Source: a bacterium (GTDB lineage: Bacteria; UBA8248). Taken from it: DNA of 64,000 bases. Location: contig OY843592.1 of NCBI GenBank assembly GCA_963692865.2, forward strand, positions 480,001-544,000, given 5' to 3'. The first letter of the stretch is position 1, and each line of letters starts with the position of its first letter. The notes beneath the pieces were generated by a model. The model did not search any database, was not told the origin of the DNA, and saw nothing but the letters and a program-made list of their open reading frames with translations. The position numbers and the translations under genes were made by a program. Of the stretch, positions 6,052 to 30,573 are shown piece by piece.

Positions 6052-6444
6052 TTGCCGTTTTACCGAATATCCGAGATGGAAACGAAGCACATCGACATGG
6101 GCAAGGCGCAGACACAGAGCGTCGCCGGGGAACTCATGAAGGCGGGGATGATCACCTACCCCGCAGACGGCGGCCCGCCGCCGCACTATCACCCCAACGA
6201 GGAGCAGTTCCTTCTGGTGATGGAGGGAAAGGCGAACGTGATTCTGGGCGATGAGACCCGCGTCGTCGGCCCCGGCGACCTGGTGCACATCCGCCGCAAC
6301 GAGCGCCACGGCCTCCGCATCACCGAGGGACCTTTCGCCTTTTTCACCGTAAAAAGCCCCGCCGGCGACGGCGATCTGTATCAGGACTACAACAAGGCCG
6401 AAGACGCCGACGAGGCGCGGGAGAAACTGGAATCCACATTATAG
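6052..6444 (+). CDS. Cupin domain protein (tandem copy 1)
   Basis: PPPHYHPNEEQ and a downstream His motif; AAGGAG RBS before a TTG start. Confidence 0.85.
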   Translation: MPFYRISEMETKHIDMGKAQTQSVAGELMKAGMITYPADGGPPPHYHPNEEQFLLVMEGKANVILGDETRVVGPGDLVHIRRNERHGLRITEGPFAFFTVKSPAGDGDLYQDYNKAEDADEAREKLESTL

Positions 6445-6473: not shown

Positions 6474-6860
6474 ATGCCGTTTTACAGAATGGAAGACCTC
6501 CCCCAGGGCTCCTCGAAAGTAGGCCCCGCCGTGAGCCACGCGACGGCGGGCGAACTGATGAAGGTGGGCTGGGTGATTTATCCCCAGGGAGACGGACCGC
6601 CGCCGCACTTTCATCCCAACGAGGAGCAGTACATCCTGATGCTCGAAGGGAAGATGAACATGATCTGTGGCGAGGAGGTGCGCGAGATCGGCCCCGGCGA
6701 GCTGGTGCACATCCCGAGAAACACGCGCCACGGCATCCACATTACAGAAGGCCCCGCGAAGTTCTTCGCCGTCAAGAGCCCGGCGGGCGACGGCACGCTG
6801 GATCAGGACTACAACAAGGCGGCAGATGCGGACGAGGTGACCGAGCGACTCAAGAACTAG
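6474..6860 (+). CDS. Cupin domain protein (tandem copy 2)
   Basis: PPPHFHPNEEQ; colinear paralog of 6052..6444. Confidence 0.87.
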   Translation: MPFYRMEDLPQGSSKVGPAVSHATAGELMKVGWVIYPQGDGPPPHFHPNEEQYILMLEGKMNMICGEEVREIGPGELVHIPRNTRHGIHITEGPAKFFAVKSPAGDGTLDQDYNKAADADEVTERLKN

Positions 6861-6972: not shown

Positions 6973-7505
6973 ATTCCCCCCTTGAGGGGGTTGAAAAAGT
7001 CCGATGCGGCGCAATCCCCCTCCCCGTCCTGCGCAGCCTGCCGCTCCGCCTCACCCTGAGAAGCGGCCCCCTCGACTTCGCTCGGGGCAAGCTCCGCTGT
7101 CCCCCCATCTTCCTCACCCCGAGTAGCCGCCGAAGGCGGCGTATCGAAGGGCGAATTTCGCGCCCGCCAGCGAGATGCCCTCCCATCCTTCGATACGGCG
7201 CATACGCGCCTACTCAGGATGAGGGTTCGGGGCGCTGGGATGAGGGCGTCAAGCGTTCTGCGAAGCCCGATACCGCGCGGTGGGTCAATCCCGACGGCGA
7301 CCCCTGCACATCCCCATCGAATGGCGACCGTAGGGGCGGACCTGCGTGTCCGCCCTGTTTTACCGTTGCGTTGTCGTTACGAGATGGATACCCGAAGGCG
7401 GGCGGACACGCAGGTCCGCCCCTACGGGAAACATTCCTTTGGAGAGACCGCAACGCCCGTCATTCCGGCGAAAGCCGGAATCCATTTGTTTTGCCTTTGT
7501 TTTTT
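6973..7505. repeat. Composite intergenic repeat cluster (families A, B, C and GTAG-type REPs)
   Basis: CTCACCCcGAGTAGCCGCCGAAGGCGGCGTATCGAAGGG...CTACTCAGGATGAGG (7112-7224) recurs at 20128-20270. Inverted GTAGGGGCGGACC..GTGTCCGCCC pair at 7330-7425. Confidence 0.8.
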
Positions 7506-8031
7506 ATTGCTGCGCCTGGGCGTCCTGCATCCGTTTCTTCCTGAACTGCACGGCCTGGATGACGTCCTGCCAGACGAGACGCCCCAGAGGCCCCGAACTG
7601 TAGAGCGATATGTTCACCTTGCCGTCCGGTGAAAGCAGAAAGTTGGTGGCGTGGAGGAAGGGCCTCGGTTTCTCGCCCGCCTCGGGTGAGTAGAAAGCGC
7701 CCGTCGCCTCCGAGATGCGAGCGGGGTCCAGGCTGTGTCCAACCGGAAAATTCACCTTGCCGGCTTCGATGGATTGCAACGCTTCCTCTTCGGGGTCGGT
7801 GGACGCCGCCACCACCTTGATGCCCTCTGCTTCCAGTCTTTCTCCCGCCCGGGAGAATCCCGCCATCTGGGCGAGTCAGTAGGGTCACCAATGGCTGCGG
7901 TAGAAGAGGACGACGCCCCACGAACCCAGCAAGTCATTGGGCAAAGAGATTTTTCCGCCGCCCACCTTGGGAATCTCGAGACTCGGGAAATCATCCCCGG
8001 TGTCCAGGAAGAACCGGTTCACTTTCGGCAT
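7504..8031 (-). CDS. Peroxiredoxin-like (AhpC/TSA, Trx-fold) selenoprotein with UxxU motif, 175 aa
   Basis: One frame MPKVNRFFLDTGDDFPSL...FYRSHW-TGA-P-Y-TGA-LAQMAGF...Q-TAA, with TGAs at 7885-7887 and 7876-7878. Colinear with paralog 8188..8688. GGAG RBS; downstream hairpin at 7840-7857. Confidence 0.85.
7840..7857 (-). promoter_or_regulatory. Candidate bacterial SECIS hairpin (UUCUCCC-GGGC-GGGAGAA)
   Basis: Perfect 7-bp stem with a G-rich tetraloop, 18 nt 3' of the second UGA. Confidence 0.55.
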
Positions 8032-8135
8032 GATGGACTCCACTTTGTCGTGATGATGAATGCGGCTGTTTCATGTGCCTGGGATGTTACCTCTCCTGAA
8101 AGACCATGAAAACCGGCCCGCCGGACTCGCGCGCG

Positions 8136-8173
8136 AAAAAACACCCCCTCGAAGCCGAAACCCGAGGGGGTGT
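8136..8173 (-). terminator. Intrinsic terminator between the two Prx-like paralogs
   Basis: Minus strand ACACCCCCTCG...CGAGGGGGTGT followed by a T run. Confidence 0.7.
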
Positions 8174-8187
8174 CCAAAAGACGCGCG

Positions 8188-8688
8188 CTAGTTCTGGGAA
8201 GCCATCATCTTCTTCTGGAACTGAACCAGACCCACCACGTCCTGCCACACGAGGCGGCCGATGGGGCCGGTGCTGTAGACGGCAACGGCCACCGTTCCAT
8301 CGGGCTTCAGGACGTAGCCCGTGCTGTGGATGATCTGGCGTTTTTCCTCATAGAAACAACCCGTGAGCTCGGAAATATGCTTGTTGTCCAGGCCATAGCC
8401 CACGGGGAAGTTGATCCCGCATTCCTCAATCGTTCCCTTCGCGTTCTCCTCCGTGTCCACGGAGGCTGCAACAACCCTGACGCCTTCTTCCTTGAGCTTC
8501 GCCGCCCTGTCGAAGGCCGTAAGCTGCTGCTTGCAGTACGGTCACCAGTGTCCGCGGTAGAGCAGAACCACCCCCCAATCGCCCGCAAGGTCGCCGGGCA
8601 GGGAGATTTTTCCTCCCCCCACCTGGTCCACCTCGAGGCTCGGGAAGGGGTCGCCCGAGTCGATCATCTTGTCCGTCATTCGTGGCAT
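8188..8688 (-). CDS. Peroxiredoxin-like (AhpC/TSA, Trx-fold) selenoprotein with UxxC motif, 166 aa
   Basis: ORFs 8542..8778 and 8188..8460 share a frame: MPRMTDKMIDSGDPF...LYRGHW-TGA(8542-8544)-PYCKQQL. AGGAGG RBS; hairpin at 8495-8525. Confidence 0.88.
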
Positions 8689-8921
8689 CAATGCGCCCTC
8701 CTGAAAATGAATGAAGTGAAAAAGCCTGAGACTCCAAGTTCTGAAACGCGACCATTTATACTCCTCAGGCGGAGACATTTCAAACCGAAGCGGGCCTCTC
8801 CCGAAACGTCGCGGCGATGAAGCACGCGTTTTTCACCCCGGCGGTCTTGACACCGCGATGGCCCCTTTTTAGCATAGGCCCACTTTTTCAAAAGGCTCTC
8901 GATGAGCACAGGAGACCCTCA

Positions 8922-9200
8922 ATGAGCAATGCGACTTCTTGTGAATGCAAGACCATAAAACTGCAGGGCGAATACGAAAAGGCGGCCGGCGCATGCAACC
9001 ACGAGATTCACCTGTCCGATGAGGACACGGAGCGCTATCTGCCCCGCGATGAATCCCAGGAAAACATGATCATCTCGAAAGAATGCCGGATTCCCCCCCT
9101 CACCAGCGTCATCCGCTACGGCGAGGGTTATTACGTCCTCAAAAAAGGCCGGGTCATGCGGGAGGGCTTCAGCCGGACGCTCCCCGAGTACAAGCAGTAA
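8922..9200 (+). CDS. Small hypothetical protein containing Cys and His residues
   Basis: AGGAG RBS before ATG 8922; plausible protein composition (CECK, CNHEIH). Confidence 0.6.
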   Translation: MSNATSCECKTIKLQGEYEKAAGACNHEIHLSDEDTERYLPRDESQENMIISKECRIPPLTSVIRYGEGYYVLKKGRVMREGFSRTLPEYKQ

Positions 9201-9264: not shown

Positions 9265-9627
9265 ATGCGCGCCCAAAAATACAGTTGGGACGAAATGCCC
9301 GAGGAGGTCTTGAACGATACCTTATCGCGAAAGATGGTGGTGGGCGAAAAAGAGATGCTTTGCTGGCTCCAGCTCAAACCCGGGTGCGTGGTGCCCCTGC
9401 ACAGCCACGAGCACGAGCAGATCTCCCACGTCATCAAGGGAAGACTTCGGTTCTTCATTGACGATGAAACCGTGGAAATCGGGCCGGGTGAAACGCTCCT
9501 CATCCCACCACACGTCCCCCACTCCGTGGAAGTCGTGGGCGATGAGACGGCGATAGACTACGACATCTTCAGCCCCATCCGCGAAGACTGGGTCGACGGG
9601 ACCGATGATTACCTGAGAGACGAATAA
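9265..9627 (+). CDS. Cupin_2 domain protein
   Basis: PLHSHEHEQ...IPPHVPH...DIFSPIRED. Confidence 0.9.
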   Translation: MRAQKYSWDEMPEEVLNDTLSRKMVVGEKEMLCWLQLKPGCVVPLHSHEHEQISHVIKGRLRFFIDDETVEIGPGETLLIPPHVPHSVEVVGDETAIDYDIFSPIREDWVDGTDDYLRDE

Positions 9628-30295: not shown

Positions 30296-30371
30296 TGGTG
30301 GAGATGAGCGGGCTCGAACCGCCGACCTCCTGGTTGCAAACCAGGCGCTCTCCCGACTGAGCTACATCCCC
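30296..30371 (-). tRNA. tRNA-Ala(UGC)
   Basis: GGGGATGTAGCTCAG...TTTGCAA...GGTTCGAG...CCA in the rrn spacer. Confidence 0.96.
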
Positions 30372-30496
30372 ATCTCAGATTCCGCTTCAGGGAACGGCCC
30401 GCGACGATGAGCCTGCTCGGCTCCGCTCAACGGTCCATCCACGCCATCGCTCCCAGGCGTTTCATGTCATGCGCCTCGTCCCCGACCATCCCGATA

Positions 30497-30573
30497 TGGT
30501 GGGCCTACCTGGATTTGAACCAGGGACCTCGCGCTTATCAGGCGCGCGCTCTGACCAACTGAGCTATAGGCCC
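30497..30573 (-). tRNA. tRNA-Ile(GAU)
   Basis: GGGCCTATAGCTCAG...CTGATAA...GGTTCAAATCC...CCA in the rrn spacer. Confidence 0.96.

What the first reader, a model, noticed from the sequence alone, without database searches (positions are those of the whole stretch)
7504..8031. Hidden double-selenocysteine (U-P-Y-U) peroxiredoxin-like protein
Seen: the minus strand reads TGG TGA CCC TAC TGA CTC, giving two in-frame UGAs three codons apart at both Cys positions of a Trx-fold CxxC (residues 49 and 52). Both flanks align with the neighbouring paralog, which has U-P-Y-C. Two hairpins follow: CUCGCC-CAGAU-GGCGGG directly after the second UGA, and UUCUCCC-GGGC-GGGAGAA 18 nt after it. Knowledge: bacterial Sec insertion needs a SECIS just 3' of the UGA, and UxxU (potential diselenide) proteins are rare. 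Inference: a diselenide oxidoreductase requiring two recoding events, served by one shared SECIS or one per UGA. Standard gene callers would truncate it.
Basis: partly seen in the sequence, partly recalled or inferred. Interest (0 to 1): 0.88.

Follow-up and report, generated by a model that had tools for sequence, protein, structure and literature searches.

The report
Double-selenocysteine peroxiredoxin-like redox protein gene
This is a real gene for a small peroxiredoxin-fold redox protein whose two active-site cysteines are both replaced by selenocysteine; this is a rare arrangement, but one already listed for this protein family, and public gene calls cut the gene short.

Summary
Window 7504-8031 (-) is a 175-codon AhpC/TSA-fold ORF with TGA at codons 49 and 52 (H-W-U-P-Y-U). 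It lies next to a 56%-identical U-P-Y-C paralog. The genome has selA, selB, selD and a canonical tRNA-Sec.

Orthologs with both TGAs occur in 20 of the 51 genomes of the phylum that the tool holds. The other orthologs have TGC or TGT at codon 52, and distant homologs have C-P-Y-C. The part after the second TGA is under purifying selection (dN/dS 0.03-0.22). Contigs from three sequencing runs show both TGAs.

The second hairpin (7840-7857) has no synonymous variation in at least 31 of 35 orthologs. It is the only element found that meets the published bacterial SECIS consensus, and it meets it for both UGAs (34 and 25 nt). The first hairpin covaries but fails that consensus.

Best reading: a cytoplasmic diselenol/diselenide oxidoreductase with two Sec insertions served by one shared SECIS.

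Two reviews already list this family, "Prx-like thiol:disulfide oxidoreductase", with UxxC and UxxU forms. It is therefore a new member of a known kind, mis-called in public protein sets as 119-122-aa fragments. Interest is moderate.

The parts
7504..8031 (-). CDS of the two-Sec peroxiredoxin-like protein (175 residues plus stop; P0001), motif H47-W-U49-P-Y-U52
   Evidence: Pfam PF00578 matches at 68.8 bits. dN/dS downstream of both UGAs is 0.03-0.22.
7885..7887 (-). UGA codon 49 (first Sec). It aligns with the first Cys of CPYC homologs and with the Thr of the peroxiredoxin TxxC motif.
   Evidence: It is TGA in every clade A, clade B and outgroup member found.
7876..7878 (-). UGA codon 52 (second Sec). 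It aligns with the second Cys of CPYC and with the peroxidatic Cys of peroxiredoxins.
   Evidence: It is TGA in 20 of 35 distinct clade A orthologs and TGC or TGT in 15.
7859..7875 (-). Hairpin 1 (6 bp, loop CAGAU), directly after UGA2 and 9 nt after UGA1. It covaries but does not fit the SECIS consensus.
   Evidence: -7.8 kcal/mol; 3 of 6 pairs changed on both sides and 86.7% of cells paired. The loop lies 15 nt from UGA1 and has no G in its first two positions.
7840..7857 (-). Hairpin 2 (7 bp, loop GGGC), the candidate shared bSECIS. Its loop is 25 nt from UGA2 and 34 nt from UGA1.
   Evidence: -9.9 kcal/mol; no synonymous variation at codons 60-64, and the lowest of 141 six-codon windows; it is the only element that passes the consensus filter in 20 of 20 UPYU sequences, and it passes for both UGAs.
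8038..8041 (-). GGAG ribosome-binding site, 6 nt upstream of the ATG at 8031
   Evidence: Read directly. Orthologs also begin M-P-K-V-N.
8188..8688 (-). Tandem paralog (P0002, 166 residues) with a single Sec, H-W-U-P-Y-C. Its UGA is at 8542-8544.
   Evidence: The tandem pair was found in 21 of 22 other genomes of the genus; the exception, G015, gave one match.
8136..8173 (-). GC-rich stem followed by a T run between the two paralogs. It looks like a terminator, so the two genes may be transcribed separately.
   Evidence: Read directly. The consensus scan did not list it.

Best explanation
The gene encodes a cytoplasmic redox protein of 175 residues. It has a peroxiredoxin (AhpC/TSA) scaffold with a thioredoxin-type CxxC centre in which both positions are selenocysteine (U49-P-Y-U52).

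Both UGAs are read as Sec by the genome's SelA/SelB/SelD/tRNA-Sec system. Recoding is most likely directed by one stem-loop, hairpin 2 (UUCUCCC-GGGC-GGGAGAA, 7840-7857). Its G-rich apical loop lies 34 nt from the first UGA and 25 nt from the second, so it is in range for both.

The protein would cycle between a diselenol and an intramolecular diselenide. U49 would act as the exposed nucleophile and U52 as the resolving residue, so the protein would work as a thiol/selenol-disulfide oxidoreductase rather than a canonical peroxidase.

Shown: the ORF, both TGAs, the Sec machinery, Cys at both positions in homologs, selection on the downstream ORF, and RNA-level conservation of hairpin 2. Inferred: Sec (not another residue) at each UGA, the shared SECIS, the diselenide, and the substrate.

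My odds are about 0.9 that it is a real two-Sec selenoprotein, and about 0.6 that hairpin 2 alone serves both codons.
For: Fold and motif:
- Pfam AhpC-TSA matches at E 5.5e-19.
- The AlphaFold model has mean pLDDT 92.3, with U49 just before helix 50-61. The best Foldseek hits are BCP and other peroxiredoxins, with TM 0.70-0.78 normalised to the query.
- ResA's CxxC aligns with residues 49 and 52. The T..C of a 1-Cys peroxiredoxin aligns with U49..U52.
- Full-length homologs have W-C-P-Y-C. All 42 distinct Cys-type homologs found read CPYC.

Sec machinery:
- selB scores 391.7 bits, selA 567.2 bits and selD 334.6 bits; selD itself has one TGA.
- tRNA-Sec has an 8-bp acceptor stem and anticodon UCA and scores 76.7 bits against RF01852.

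Comparative evidence:
- 20 of 51 genomes of the phylum have the two-TGA ortholog.
- Clade A has 100/100 support and holds 20 UPYU and 15 UPYC distinct sequences. U52 lies in successive early branches.
- dN/dS for codons 65 onwards is 0.029-0.22 in the 16 comparisons (of 19) where dS was not saturated.

SECIS:
- Codons 60-64 (TCC CGG GCG GGA GAA) have no synonymous diversity; each is a single codon in 31-35 of 35 sequences. Across the rest of the gene the mean is 0.43, and only 1.5% of codons have zero diversity. The window starting at codon 59 is the lowest of 141. The element is unchanged even in the AT-richer genomes behind loci L043, L044 and L069.
- It meets all four published consensus constraints: loop of 3-9 nt, stem of 4-16 bp, G in the first two loop positions, 16-37 nt spacing, and MFE at or below -7.5 kcal/mol (criteria; tests).
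- The predicted SECIS of this genome's own selD has loop GCGGG 26 nt from its UGA, close to the 25 nt from UGA2 here.
- Some single-Sec relatives carry a different-sequence hairpin at the same distal place. Examples are UUCGC-GCGG-GCGAA in the clade A UPYC gene of G025 (by eye) and the clade B gene of L036.

Reads: contigs of X1, X2 and X3 cover both TGAs, and no other letters were reported at them.
Against: - There is no direct evidence of selenium incorporation or of a diselenide.
- Hairpin 1 keeps its pairing through compensatory wobble-position changes: 3 of 6 pairs changed on both sides, and 0 of 500 shuffles reached the observed covariation score. It therefore also appears to be under selection. 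It sits about where outgroup single-Sec genes have their invariant hairpin, at codons 53-57 with a loop 16 nt from the UGA. A purely single-SECIS model does not explain this.
- Hairpin 2 is kept unchanged in 12 of 13 distinct UPYC members of clade A examined (11 GGGC, 1 GGGU loop). Its presence therefore does not track the second UGA.
- 34 nt from UGA1 is near the upper edge of the consensus range.
- My consensus scan allows only perfect stems. It found nothing in 30 of 33 clade B genes and 7 of 12 outgroup genes, so it misses real SECIS elements.
- The selD comparison is one gene and a predicted fold.
- The peroxiredoxin Pro, Thr and Arg positions were judged from one pairwise HMMER alignment.
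Confidence: 0.6

Rival explanations
1. Two SECIS elements, one per UGA. Hairpin 1 (7859-7875) directs Sec insertion at UGA1, as the proximal hairpin appears to do in outgroup single-Sec genes. Hairpin 2 was added to serve UGA2.
For: Hairpin 1 covaries at synonymous positions (RNAalifold keeps it). Outgroup U-P-Y-C genes have their only synonymously invariant stretch at codons 53-57, a GCAGC-AGUUG-GCUGC hairpin with its loop 16 nt from the UGA. That is roughly where hairpin 1 lies. The spacing from hairpin 2 to UGA2 (25 nt) matches the predicted selD spacing (26 nt). The two deep clade A genes without hairpin 2 (L046, L073) are both U-P-Y-C.
Against: The loop of hairpin 1 (CAGAU or CAGCU) has no G in its first two positions and lies 15 nt from UGA1. 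It therefore fails two of the four consensus constraints (criteria; one search returns only hairpin 2). In the L043, L044 and L069 lineage the pairing is broken at pair 24-36 (U-U). Distal hairpins exist in single-Sec relatives. Hairpin 2 persists in U-P-Y-C orthologs.
Confidence: 0.22
2. One of the two UGAs, most likely codon 52, is not read as Sec. It would be read as Cys by a SelB-dependent tRNA of the selC*/tRNA-ReC type, or by near-cognate read-through. The mature protein would then be U-x-x-C or C-x-x-U.
For: A 2026 survey of UXXU hydrogenases raised this caveat. It found tRNA-ReC-like genes more often in UXXU genomes (passages seen, PMC13582414). Codon 52 switches freely between TGA and TGC/TGT among close orthologs, so Cys is functionally acceptable there.
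Against: ARAGORN finds only one ordinary 75-nt tRNA-Cys(GCA) and two identical canonical tRNA-Sec genes. With RF01852, no other match reaches the gathering score: the next best is 44.3 bits against a threshold of 47. Neither tool was designed to find allo-tRNAs, so such a gene could have been missed.
Confidence: 0.06
3. It is not a functional two-Sec gene. Under this reading the second TGA is a sequencing or assembly error, or a recent nonsense mutation in a decaying copy.
For: The window's closest neighbours on the tree carry TGC at codon 52. Two same-genus copies do look damaged: the G008 copy has an internal deletion and the G017 copy is split.
Against: Contigs from three runs cover the site with TGA. 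The same TGA occurs in 19 other genomes across five genera. dN/dS after the site is 0.03-0.22. The ORF is full length and intact.
Confidence: 0.02

Closest known systems
Prx-like thiol:disulfide oxidoreductase selenoprotein family (PF00578; UxxC and UxxU forms, 1-2 Sec). Two reviews list it and credit the prokaryotic selenoproteome study of Kryukov and Gladyshev.
   Same: PF00578 domain, Sec at the first position of a CxxC-type motif, and an optional second Sec at the fourth position (tables seen in PMC9312934, and PMC13188914). By the operational definition in those reviews (same domain plus same Sec motif), this gene fits.
   Different: I could not fetch the family's representative (WP_010940744.1) to test direct homology. 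The lineage here (record titles name relatives as Nitrospinota MAGs) and the invariant distal SECIS were not described in the passages I saw.
SelL, a UxxU selenoprotein with a demonstrated diselenide (Shchedrina et al. 2007, PNAS)
   Same: Prx-like, Trx-fold protein with a UxxU motif. The passage in PMC2397514 says SelL has a diselenide bond and occurs in fish, invertebrates and marine bacteria. From memory of the abstract (the paper itself is not held), bacterial SelL uses a single in-ORF SECIS placed to serve both UGAs.
   Different: NCBIfam SelL_rel_redox (NF040769) scores only 26.6 bits against a cut-off of 120, so this gene is not a member. The GOS paper places its UxxU sequences in 'Prx-like 2', with low similarity to pfam04592. 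This protein matches PF00578.
Peroxiredoxins proper, including the Sec form PrxU (PxxxTxxU)
   Same: Same overall fold (Foldseek hits BCP, AhpC and Prx6). U52 aligns with the peroxidatic Cys.
   Different: In the alignment, the conserved Pro, Thr and catalytic Arg of the peroxiredoxin site are R45, U49 and A128 here. NCBIfam peroxi_PrxU scores 18.4 bits against a cut-off of 270.
ResA/TlpA-type CxxC thiol-disulfide oxidoreductases
   Same: The W-C-x-x-C motif at the start of the helix aligns residue for residue with ResA. This suggests the same exchange chemistry.
   Different: The match to the ResA model scores 22.5 bits against a cut-off of 170. The sequence does not start with a hydrophobic leader (by eye; not tested with a predictor). 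The C-terminal half follows the peroxiredoxin fold.
UXXU-type Group 4 [NiFeSe] hydrogenases (PMC13582414, 2026)
   Same: Two UGAs three codons apart. The authors suggest that both may be decoded under one downstream SECIS (passages seen).
   Different: It is an unrelated protein in which Sec is a metal ligand. That paper reports tRNA-ReC-like genes in many UXXU genomes. None was found here.

Membership tests
Bacterial selenoprotein (Sec-UGA recoding) | In-frame UGA aligned with Cys (or Sec) in homologs | tested here: met
   Both codons align with Cys in C-P-Y-C homologs. All 42 distinct Cys-type homologs found read CPYC, and 61 distinct sequences read UPYC.
Bacterial selenoprotein (Sec-UGA recoding) | selA, selB, selD and tRNA-Sec present in the genome | tested here: met
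   All three proteins score above the curated cut-offs. tRNA-Sec was found by ARAGORN and by RF01852 at 76.7 bits against a threshold of 47.
Bacterial selenoprotein (Sec-UGA recoding) | bSECIS fitting the consensus: loop of 3-9 nt, stem of 4-16 bp, G in loop position 1 or 2, 16-37 nt from the UGA, MFE at or below -7.5 kcal/mol | tested here: met
   The criteria are quoted from PMC13188914. Hairpin 2 has loop GGGC, 7 bp, -9.9 kcal/mol alone (-9.8 in the script), and lies 34 nt from UGA1 and 25 nt from UGA2. Hairpin 1 fails the loop-G and spacing criteria.
Bacterial selenoprotein (Sec-UGA recoding) | ORF downstream of the UGA is under purifying selection | tested here: met
   dN/dS is 0.029-0.22 for codons 65 onwards in 16 of 19 comparisons. 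The other three had saturated dS.
Bacterial selenoprotein (Sec-UGA recoding) | Selenium actually incorporated at the UGA positions | not testable with these tools
   This needs 75Se labelling or mass spectrometry.
Prx-like thiol:disulfide oxidoreductase selenoprotein family (UxxC/UxxU) | PF00578 (AhpC-TSA) domain | tested here: met
   68.8 bits against a cut-off of 26.
Prx-like thiol:disulfide oxidoreductase selenoprotein family (UxxC/UxxU) | UxxC or UxxU motif at the Trx-type CxxC position | tested here: met
   The motif is U49-P-Y-U52. It aligns with the CxxC of ResA.
Prx-like thiol:disulfide oxidoreductase selenoprotein family (UxxC/UxxU) | Sequence homology to the family's named representative (WP_010940744.1) | not tested
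Peroxiredoxin proper (PxxxTxxC plus catalytic Arg) | Conserved Pro and Thr before the peroxidatic Cys, and the catalytic Arg | tested here: not met
   In the alignment with the 1-Cys peroxiredoxin 7kuu, P, T and R correspond to R45, U49 and A128. This rests on a single pairwise alignment.
SelL / SelL-related redox protein (NF040769) | Score above the curated NCBIfam cut-off | tested here: not met
   26.6 bits against 120, covering residues 33-105 only.
Diselenide-forming UxxU redox centre | Intramolecular Se-Se bond between the two Sec residues | not testable with these tools
   The model places residue 49 just before helix 50-61, as in CxxC proteins. I did not measure atom distances.

The most novel reading that the evidence does not exclude
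The two hairpins form one composite recoding device specialised for two Sec insertions 9 nt apart. Hairpin 2 is the SelB-binding SECIS. Hairpin 1 is a collapsible spacer. When hairpin 1 is folded, the base of hairpin 2 lies about 10 nt, in effect, from UGA1. When the ribosome melts it at UGA2, the spacing becomes 18 nt of linear RNA. One SECIS would thus be presented at a workable distance to both codons. This would explain why hairpin 1 covaries although it fails the SECIS consensus. It would also explain why 18 nt are frozen across genera that otherwise differ at most synonymous sites.
Probability: 0.15. Interest if true: 0.6.

Novelty: new member of a known kind. Interest (0 to 1): 0.38.

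Why it matters
UxxU centres are among the few natural settings for a possible protein diselenide. How bacteria decode two UGAs three codons apart is still argued from sequence alone.

This lineage offers a natural series to work with. Close orthologs (84-95% identical in the genus) differ by U or C at codon 52, and there were at least 4-6 independent switches. A single-Sec paralog sits next door. The candidate SECIS is in range of both UGAs.

That makes several experiments easy to set up. One is a reporter test of a shared SECIS against tandem SECIS elements. Another is a direct comparison of diselenide and selenenylsulfide redox chemistry on one scaffold.

There is also a practical point. The nearest relatives in the public protein set are C-terminal fragments of 119-122 aa; the two I aligned start at the equivalent of Met56, and they carry no selenoprotein name. 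Annotation of this Sec-rich lineage therefore needs correcting.

Tried and rejected
- Rfam scan of 7300-8900 at E up to 10. It gave only chance-level matches, all below their gathering scores, and nothing over the hairpins.
- Clade B paralog. RNAalifold on 30 sequences gave no conserved local hairpin after the UGA. The synonymous-diversity scan gave no strongly constrained window there. My perfect-stem consensus scan found nothing in 30 of 33 genes. The paralog's SECIS remains unresolved.
- Gene neighbourhood. Pfam on ten neighbouring ORFs gave an alpha/beta hydrolase, three cupins, two Band 7 (SPFH) proteins, a PfkB kinase and three with no match. There is no reductase or pathway clue.
- Promoter and terminator scan. 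It listed no promoter for either gene and did not list the terminator-like hairpin at 8136-8173.
- Expression. The RNA run X18 gave only short contigs with 3-9 other letters: 34 nt over 7877-7910 and two pieces over 8401-8723. These probably come from relatives, so I make no claim about transcription.
- Sequencing error and pseudogene readings were considered and rejected (see rivals).
- Cys recoding by a selC*-like tRNA was considered.
- The G015 row shows '2 TGA' for a clade-B-like match at 55% identity. I did not locate its second TGA and did not count it as UxxU.
- I did not use complex prediction, the search of protein representatives or the protein-atlas search, because no open question here needed them.
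- Supplements of the reviews and of BSepDB were not opened. They may list these very orthologs: BSepDB credits 54 selenoprotein genes to the MAG FO_M_Nitrospinota_01, and by its record title locus L065 comes from that MAG.
- Searches behind the novelty statement: 'UxxU' + 'selenocysteine' (6 papers), 'SelL' + 'diselenide bond' + 'selenoprotein', 'bSECISearch', and 'selenoprotein' + 'Nitrospinota' (1 paper).
Full report
OBSERVATION

On the minus strand, window 7504-8031 is an ORF of 175 codons plus a stop. It starts at the ATG at 8031, six nt after a GGAG. Read with TGA=U, it gives ...V-V-L-F-Y-R-S-H-W-U-P-Y-U-L-A-Q-M..., with TGA at codons 49 (7885-7887) and 52 (7876-7878).

- CUCGCC-CAGAU-GGCGGG at 7859-7875, directly after the second UGA.
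- UUCUCCC-GGGC-GGGAGAA at 7840-7857, 18 nt after the second UGA.

Folded alone they give -7.8 and -9.9 kcal/mol. In a 52-nt context both form in the minimum-energy structure.

The neighbouring gene (8188-8688, minus strand) reads H-W-U-P-Y-C and is 56% identical. Under table 11 the gene shrinks to a 120-aa ORF at 7504-7866.

IS IT REAL?

The genome has the Sec machinery:
- selB scores 391.7 bits, selA 567.2 bits and selD 334.6 bits. All are above the curated cut-offs, and selD itself carries one TGA.
- There is a canonical tRNA-Sec with an 8-bp acceptor stem and anticodon UCA. It is present as two identical copies, on contigs C1 and C4, and scores 76.7 bits against RF01852.

Contigs from three runs cover both TGAs, and no other letters were reported at them: X1 over 7476-8035, X2 over 7652-8035 and X3 over 7780-8800. 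The runs belong to one study and may include the source sample, so this rules out an assembly slip but not much more.

The stronger evidence is comparative. Among the 51 genomes of the phylum that the tool holds, 47 have a match. In 20 of them the best ortholog has two TGAs, spread over five genera of one family (first seen).

From all loci I extracted 124 distinct family members: 20 U-P-Y-U, 61 U-P-Y-C, 1 U-H-Y-C and 42 C-P-Y-C. Full-length Cys homologs carry W-C-P-Y-C at exactly these positions. Record titles place them in Actinomycetota, Alphaproteobacteria and other groups.

Against 19 other U-P-Y-U orthologs, dN/dS for codons 65 onwards is 0.029-0.22 in the 16 comparisons with unsaturated dS. 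That is about the same as upstream of the UGAs. The part after both UGAs is therefore translated.

WHAT KIND OF PROTEIN?

- Pfam gives AhpC-TSA at E 5.5e-19 and Redoxin at E 2.5e-10.
- No NCBIfam model reaches its cut-off. SelL_rel_redox scores 26.6 against 120, peroxi_PrxU 18.4 against 270, and ResA 22.5 against 170.
- An AlphaFold model built on 36 sequences has mean pLDDT 92.3. It has a strand at 38-43 and a helix at 50-61, so residue 49 sits just before the helix start, as in CxxC proteins.
- The best Foldseek matches in the PDB are BCP, AhpC and Prx6-type peroxiredoxins, with query-normalised TM-scores of 0.70-0.78 for the top five.

In the HMMER alignments, ResA's W-C-x-x-C aligns with W-U-P-Y-U. 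The F-T-P-V-C of a 1-Cys peroxiredoxin aligns so that its Thr falls on U49 and its peroxidatic Cys on U52. Its Pro and catalytic Arg fall on R45 and A128.

The scaffold is therefore peroxiredoxin-like, but the peroxiredoxin catalytic residues are not kept and the centre is of the thioredoxin CxxC type. This rests on one pairwise alignment. I saw no leader-like hydrophobic start (by eye; not tested with a predictor). Neighbouring genes give no pathway clue.

EVOLUTION OF THE SECOND SEC

A careful maximum-likelihood tree separates the orthologs of this gene (clade A, 100/100 support, 35 distinct sequences) from the paralog's clade (a quick tree of all 124 sequences is).

Within clade A, U52 occurs in successive early-branching lineages, and C52 is nested several times. 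The tree needs at least 6 changes, of which the well-supported branches force at least 4. The window's gene keeps U52 and is sister to a C52 group.

The simplest reading is an old U-P-Y-U state with repeated single-base TGA-to-TGC or TGT replacements. However, the root state of clade A is not resolved, because one deep lineage (L046, L073) is C52.

WHICH RNA ELEMENT DIRECTS RECODING?

Three results bear on this.

1. Synonymous variation. Across 35 clade A genes, codons 60-64 (TCC CGG GCG GGA GAA) have zero synonymous diversity, and F59 is TTC in 33 of 35. The six-codon window starting at codon 59 is the lowest of 141 windows (0.018, against a gene mean of 0.43). Only 1.5% of other codons have zero diversity. 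The 18 nt are unchanged even in AT-richer genomes (L043, L044, L069). One lineage has GGGU in the loop, and one deep U-P-Y-C lineage lacks the element.

2. Fit to the published consensus. A 2026 review gives the bacterial SECIS consensus as a loop of 3-9 nt, a stem of 4-16 bp, a G in the first two loop positions, 16-37 nt from the UGA to the loop, and MFE at or below -7.5 kcal/mol (passages seen). Hairpin 2 meets all of these for both UGAs, at 34 and 25 nt. My perfect-stem scan returns it, and only it, in 20 of 20 U-P-Y-U sequences. Hairpin 1 fails on the loop G and on spacing: 15 nt from UGA1 and 6 nt from UGA2.

3. Covariation of hairpin 1. Three of its six pairs change on both sides, mostly at wobble positions. 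86.7% of cells are paired. No shuffle out of 500 reached the observed covariation score. Slid controls mostly score lower, although the +3 slide matches on covariation score.

There is also context from relatives:
- Outgroup single-Sec genes have their only frozen stretch at codons 53-57, a GCAGC-AGUUG-GCUGC hairpin 16 nt from the UGA.
- Some single-Sec genes of this phylum instead carry a distal hairpin of different sequence at the hairpin 2 position. These are the clade A U-P-Y-C gene of G025 (by eye) and the clade B gene of L036.
- The predicted SECIS loop of this genome's own selD lies 26 nt from its UGA (one gene, predicted fold).

Together these favour one shared distal SECIS (hairpin 2). 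I put that at about 0.6, given that the gene is a real two-Sec selenoprotein. A tandem-SECIS model gets about 0.2. Hairpin 1's conservation is left partly unexplained. A speculative composite model, with hairpin 1 as a collapsible spacer, is given as the novel case.

RIVALS FOR THE IDENTITY OF THE RESIDUE

A 2026 paper on UXXU hydrogenases warns that SelB-dependent tRNA-ReC could insert Cys at such UGAs. Here ARAGORN finds only an ordinary tRNA-Cys and the two identical tRNA-Sec genes. No other RF01852 match reaches the gathering score. This weakens the rival but does not exclude it.

COMPARISON WITH WHAT IS KNOWN

Two reviews list 'Prx-like thiol:disulfide oxidoreductase' (PF00578) with UxxC and UxxU motifs; the 2026 review adds 1-2 Sec per protein (tables seen; PMC9312934, PMC13188914). 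By their operational definition (domain plus motif) this gene belongs there. I could not test homology to their representative sequence.

Other precedents:
- UxxU sequences were reported in a different 'Prx-like 2' family in GOS.
- SelL is the characterised UxxU diselenide protein (passage in PMC2397514). The paper itself is not held, so details of its bacterial SECIS are from memory.
- BSepDB ranks MAGs of phylum UBA8248 (titled Nitrospinota) among the most selenoprotein-rich bacteria. It credits 54 selenoprotein genes to FO_M_Nitrospinota_01. By its record title, locus L065 comes from that MAG, and it carries a U-P-Y-U ortholog.

Orthologs may therefore already sit in that database.

In the protein collection that I searched, the nearest relatives are fragments of 119-122 aa without a selenoprotein name; the two that I aligned start at the equivalent of Met56.

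VERDICT

It is a new member of a known kind, not a new kind.

What this analysis adds:
- the phylogenetic spread (20 of 51 genomes);
- the repeated Sec/Cys switching at codon 52;
- the mapping of U52 onto the peroxidatic position;
- RNA-level evidence pointing to one frozen distal SECIS in range of both UGAs, with a covarying proximal hairpin still to be explained.

Noticed in passing
window 7453-7503: A short hairpin repeat lies just downstream of the gene's stop; its core is a TTCCGGC-GAAA-GCCGGAA stem-loop. A 22-nt core occurs about 152 times in the genome with up to 2 mismatches. This bin has very high summed contig depth in three metagenome runs. It looks like a REP or MITE-type element.
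   Followed up: partly
window 7319-7436: An inverted repeat with 37-nt arms, 89% complementary, and 44 nt between them. Contigs in the runs show joints that skip 37-98 nt here (table 5), so the region varies between genomes or strains.
   Followed up: partly
G000:C1:65915-66877 (locus L011): selD is itself a selenoprotein gene, with one in-frame TGA in the context K-A-G-G-U-G-S-K. A long predicted stem follows it, with apical loop GCGGG 26 nt from the UGA.
   Followed up: partly
G000:C1:1207500-1207596 and G000:C4:29715-29811: Two identical 97-nt tRNA-Sec genes lie on different contigs. Contig C4 may be an assembly duplicate; the genome's contamination estimate is 6.69%.
   Followed up: no
window 8188-8688: The single-Sec paralog has no conserved local hairpin after its UGA across 30 relatives. 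It also has no consensus-type perfect-stem hairpin in 30 of 33 genes. Its SECIS is unresolved.
   Followed up: partly
L072 (G008) and L045/L071 (G017): Two same-genus orthologs of the gene look damaged. One has an internal deletion joining ...E-A-G-K to M-N-I-S-L-Y-S-S-G. The other is split into two pieces.
   Followed up: no
L094, L099 and L118: Other ORFs with in-frame TGA in Trx-like contexts lie near the family members in Methylomirabilota and Rokuibacteriota records (T-W-U-P-L-C and T-W-U-P-H-C). They may be further selenoproteins.
   Followed up: no
window 6052-6444, 6474-6860 and 9265-9627: Three small Cupin_2 genes flank the selenoprotein pair. An 8817-9200 (+) ORF with no Pfam match lies divergent to the paralog.
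   Followed up: no
window 30296-30573: tRNA-Ala(UGC) and tRNA-Ile(GAU) lie side by side on the minus strand. This is the usual spacer pair of an rRNA operon.
   Followed up: no
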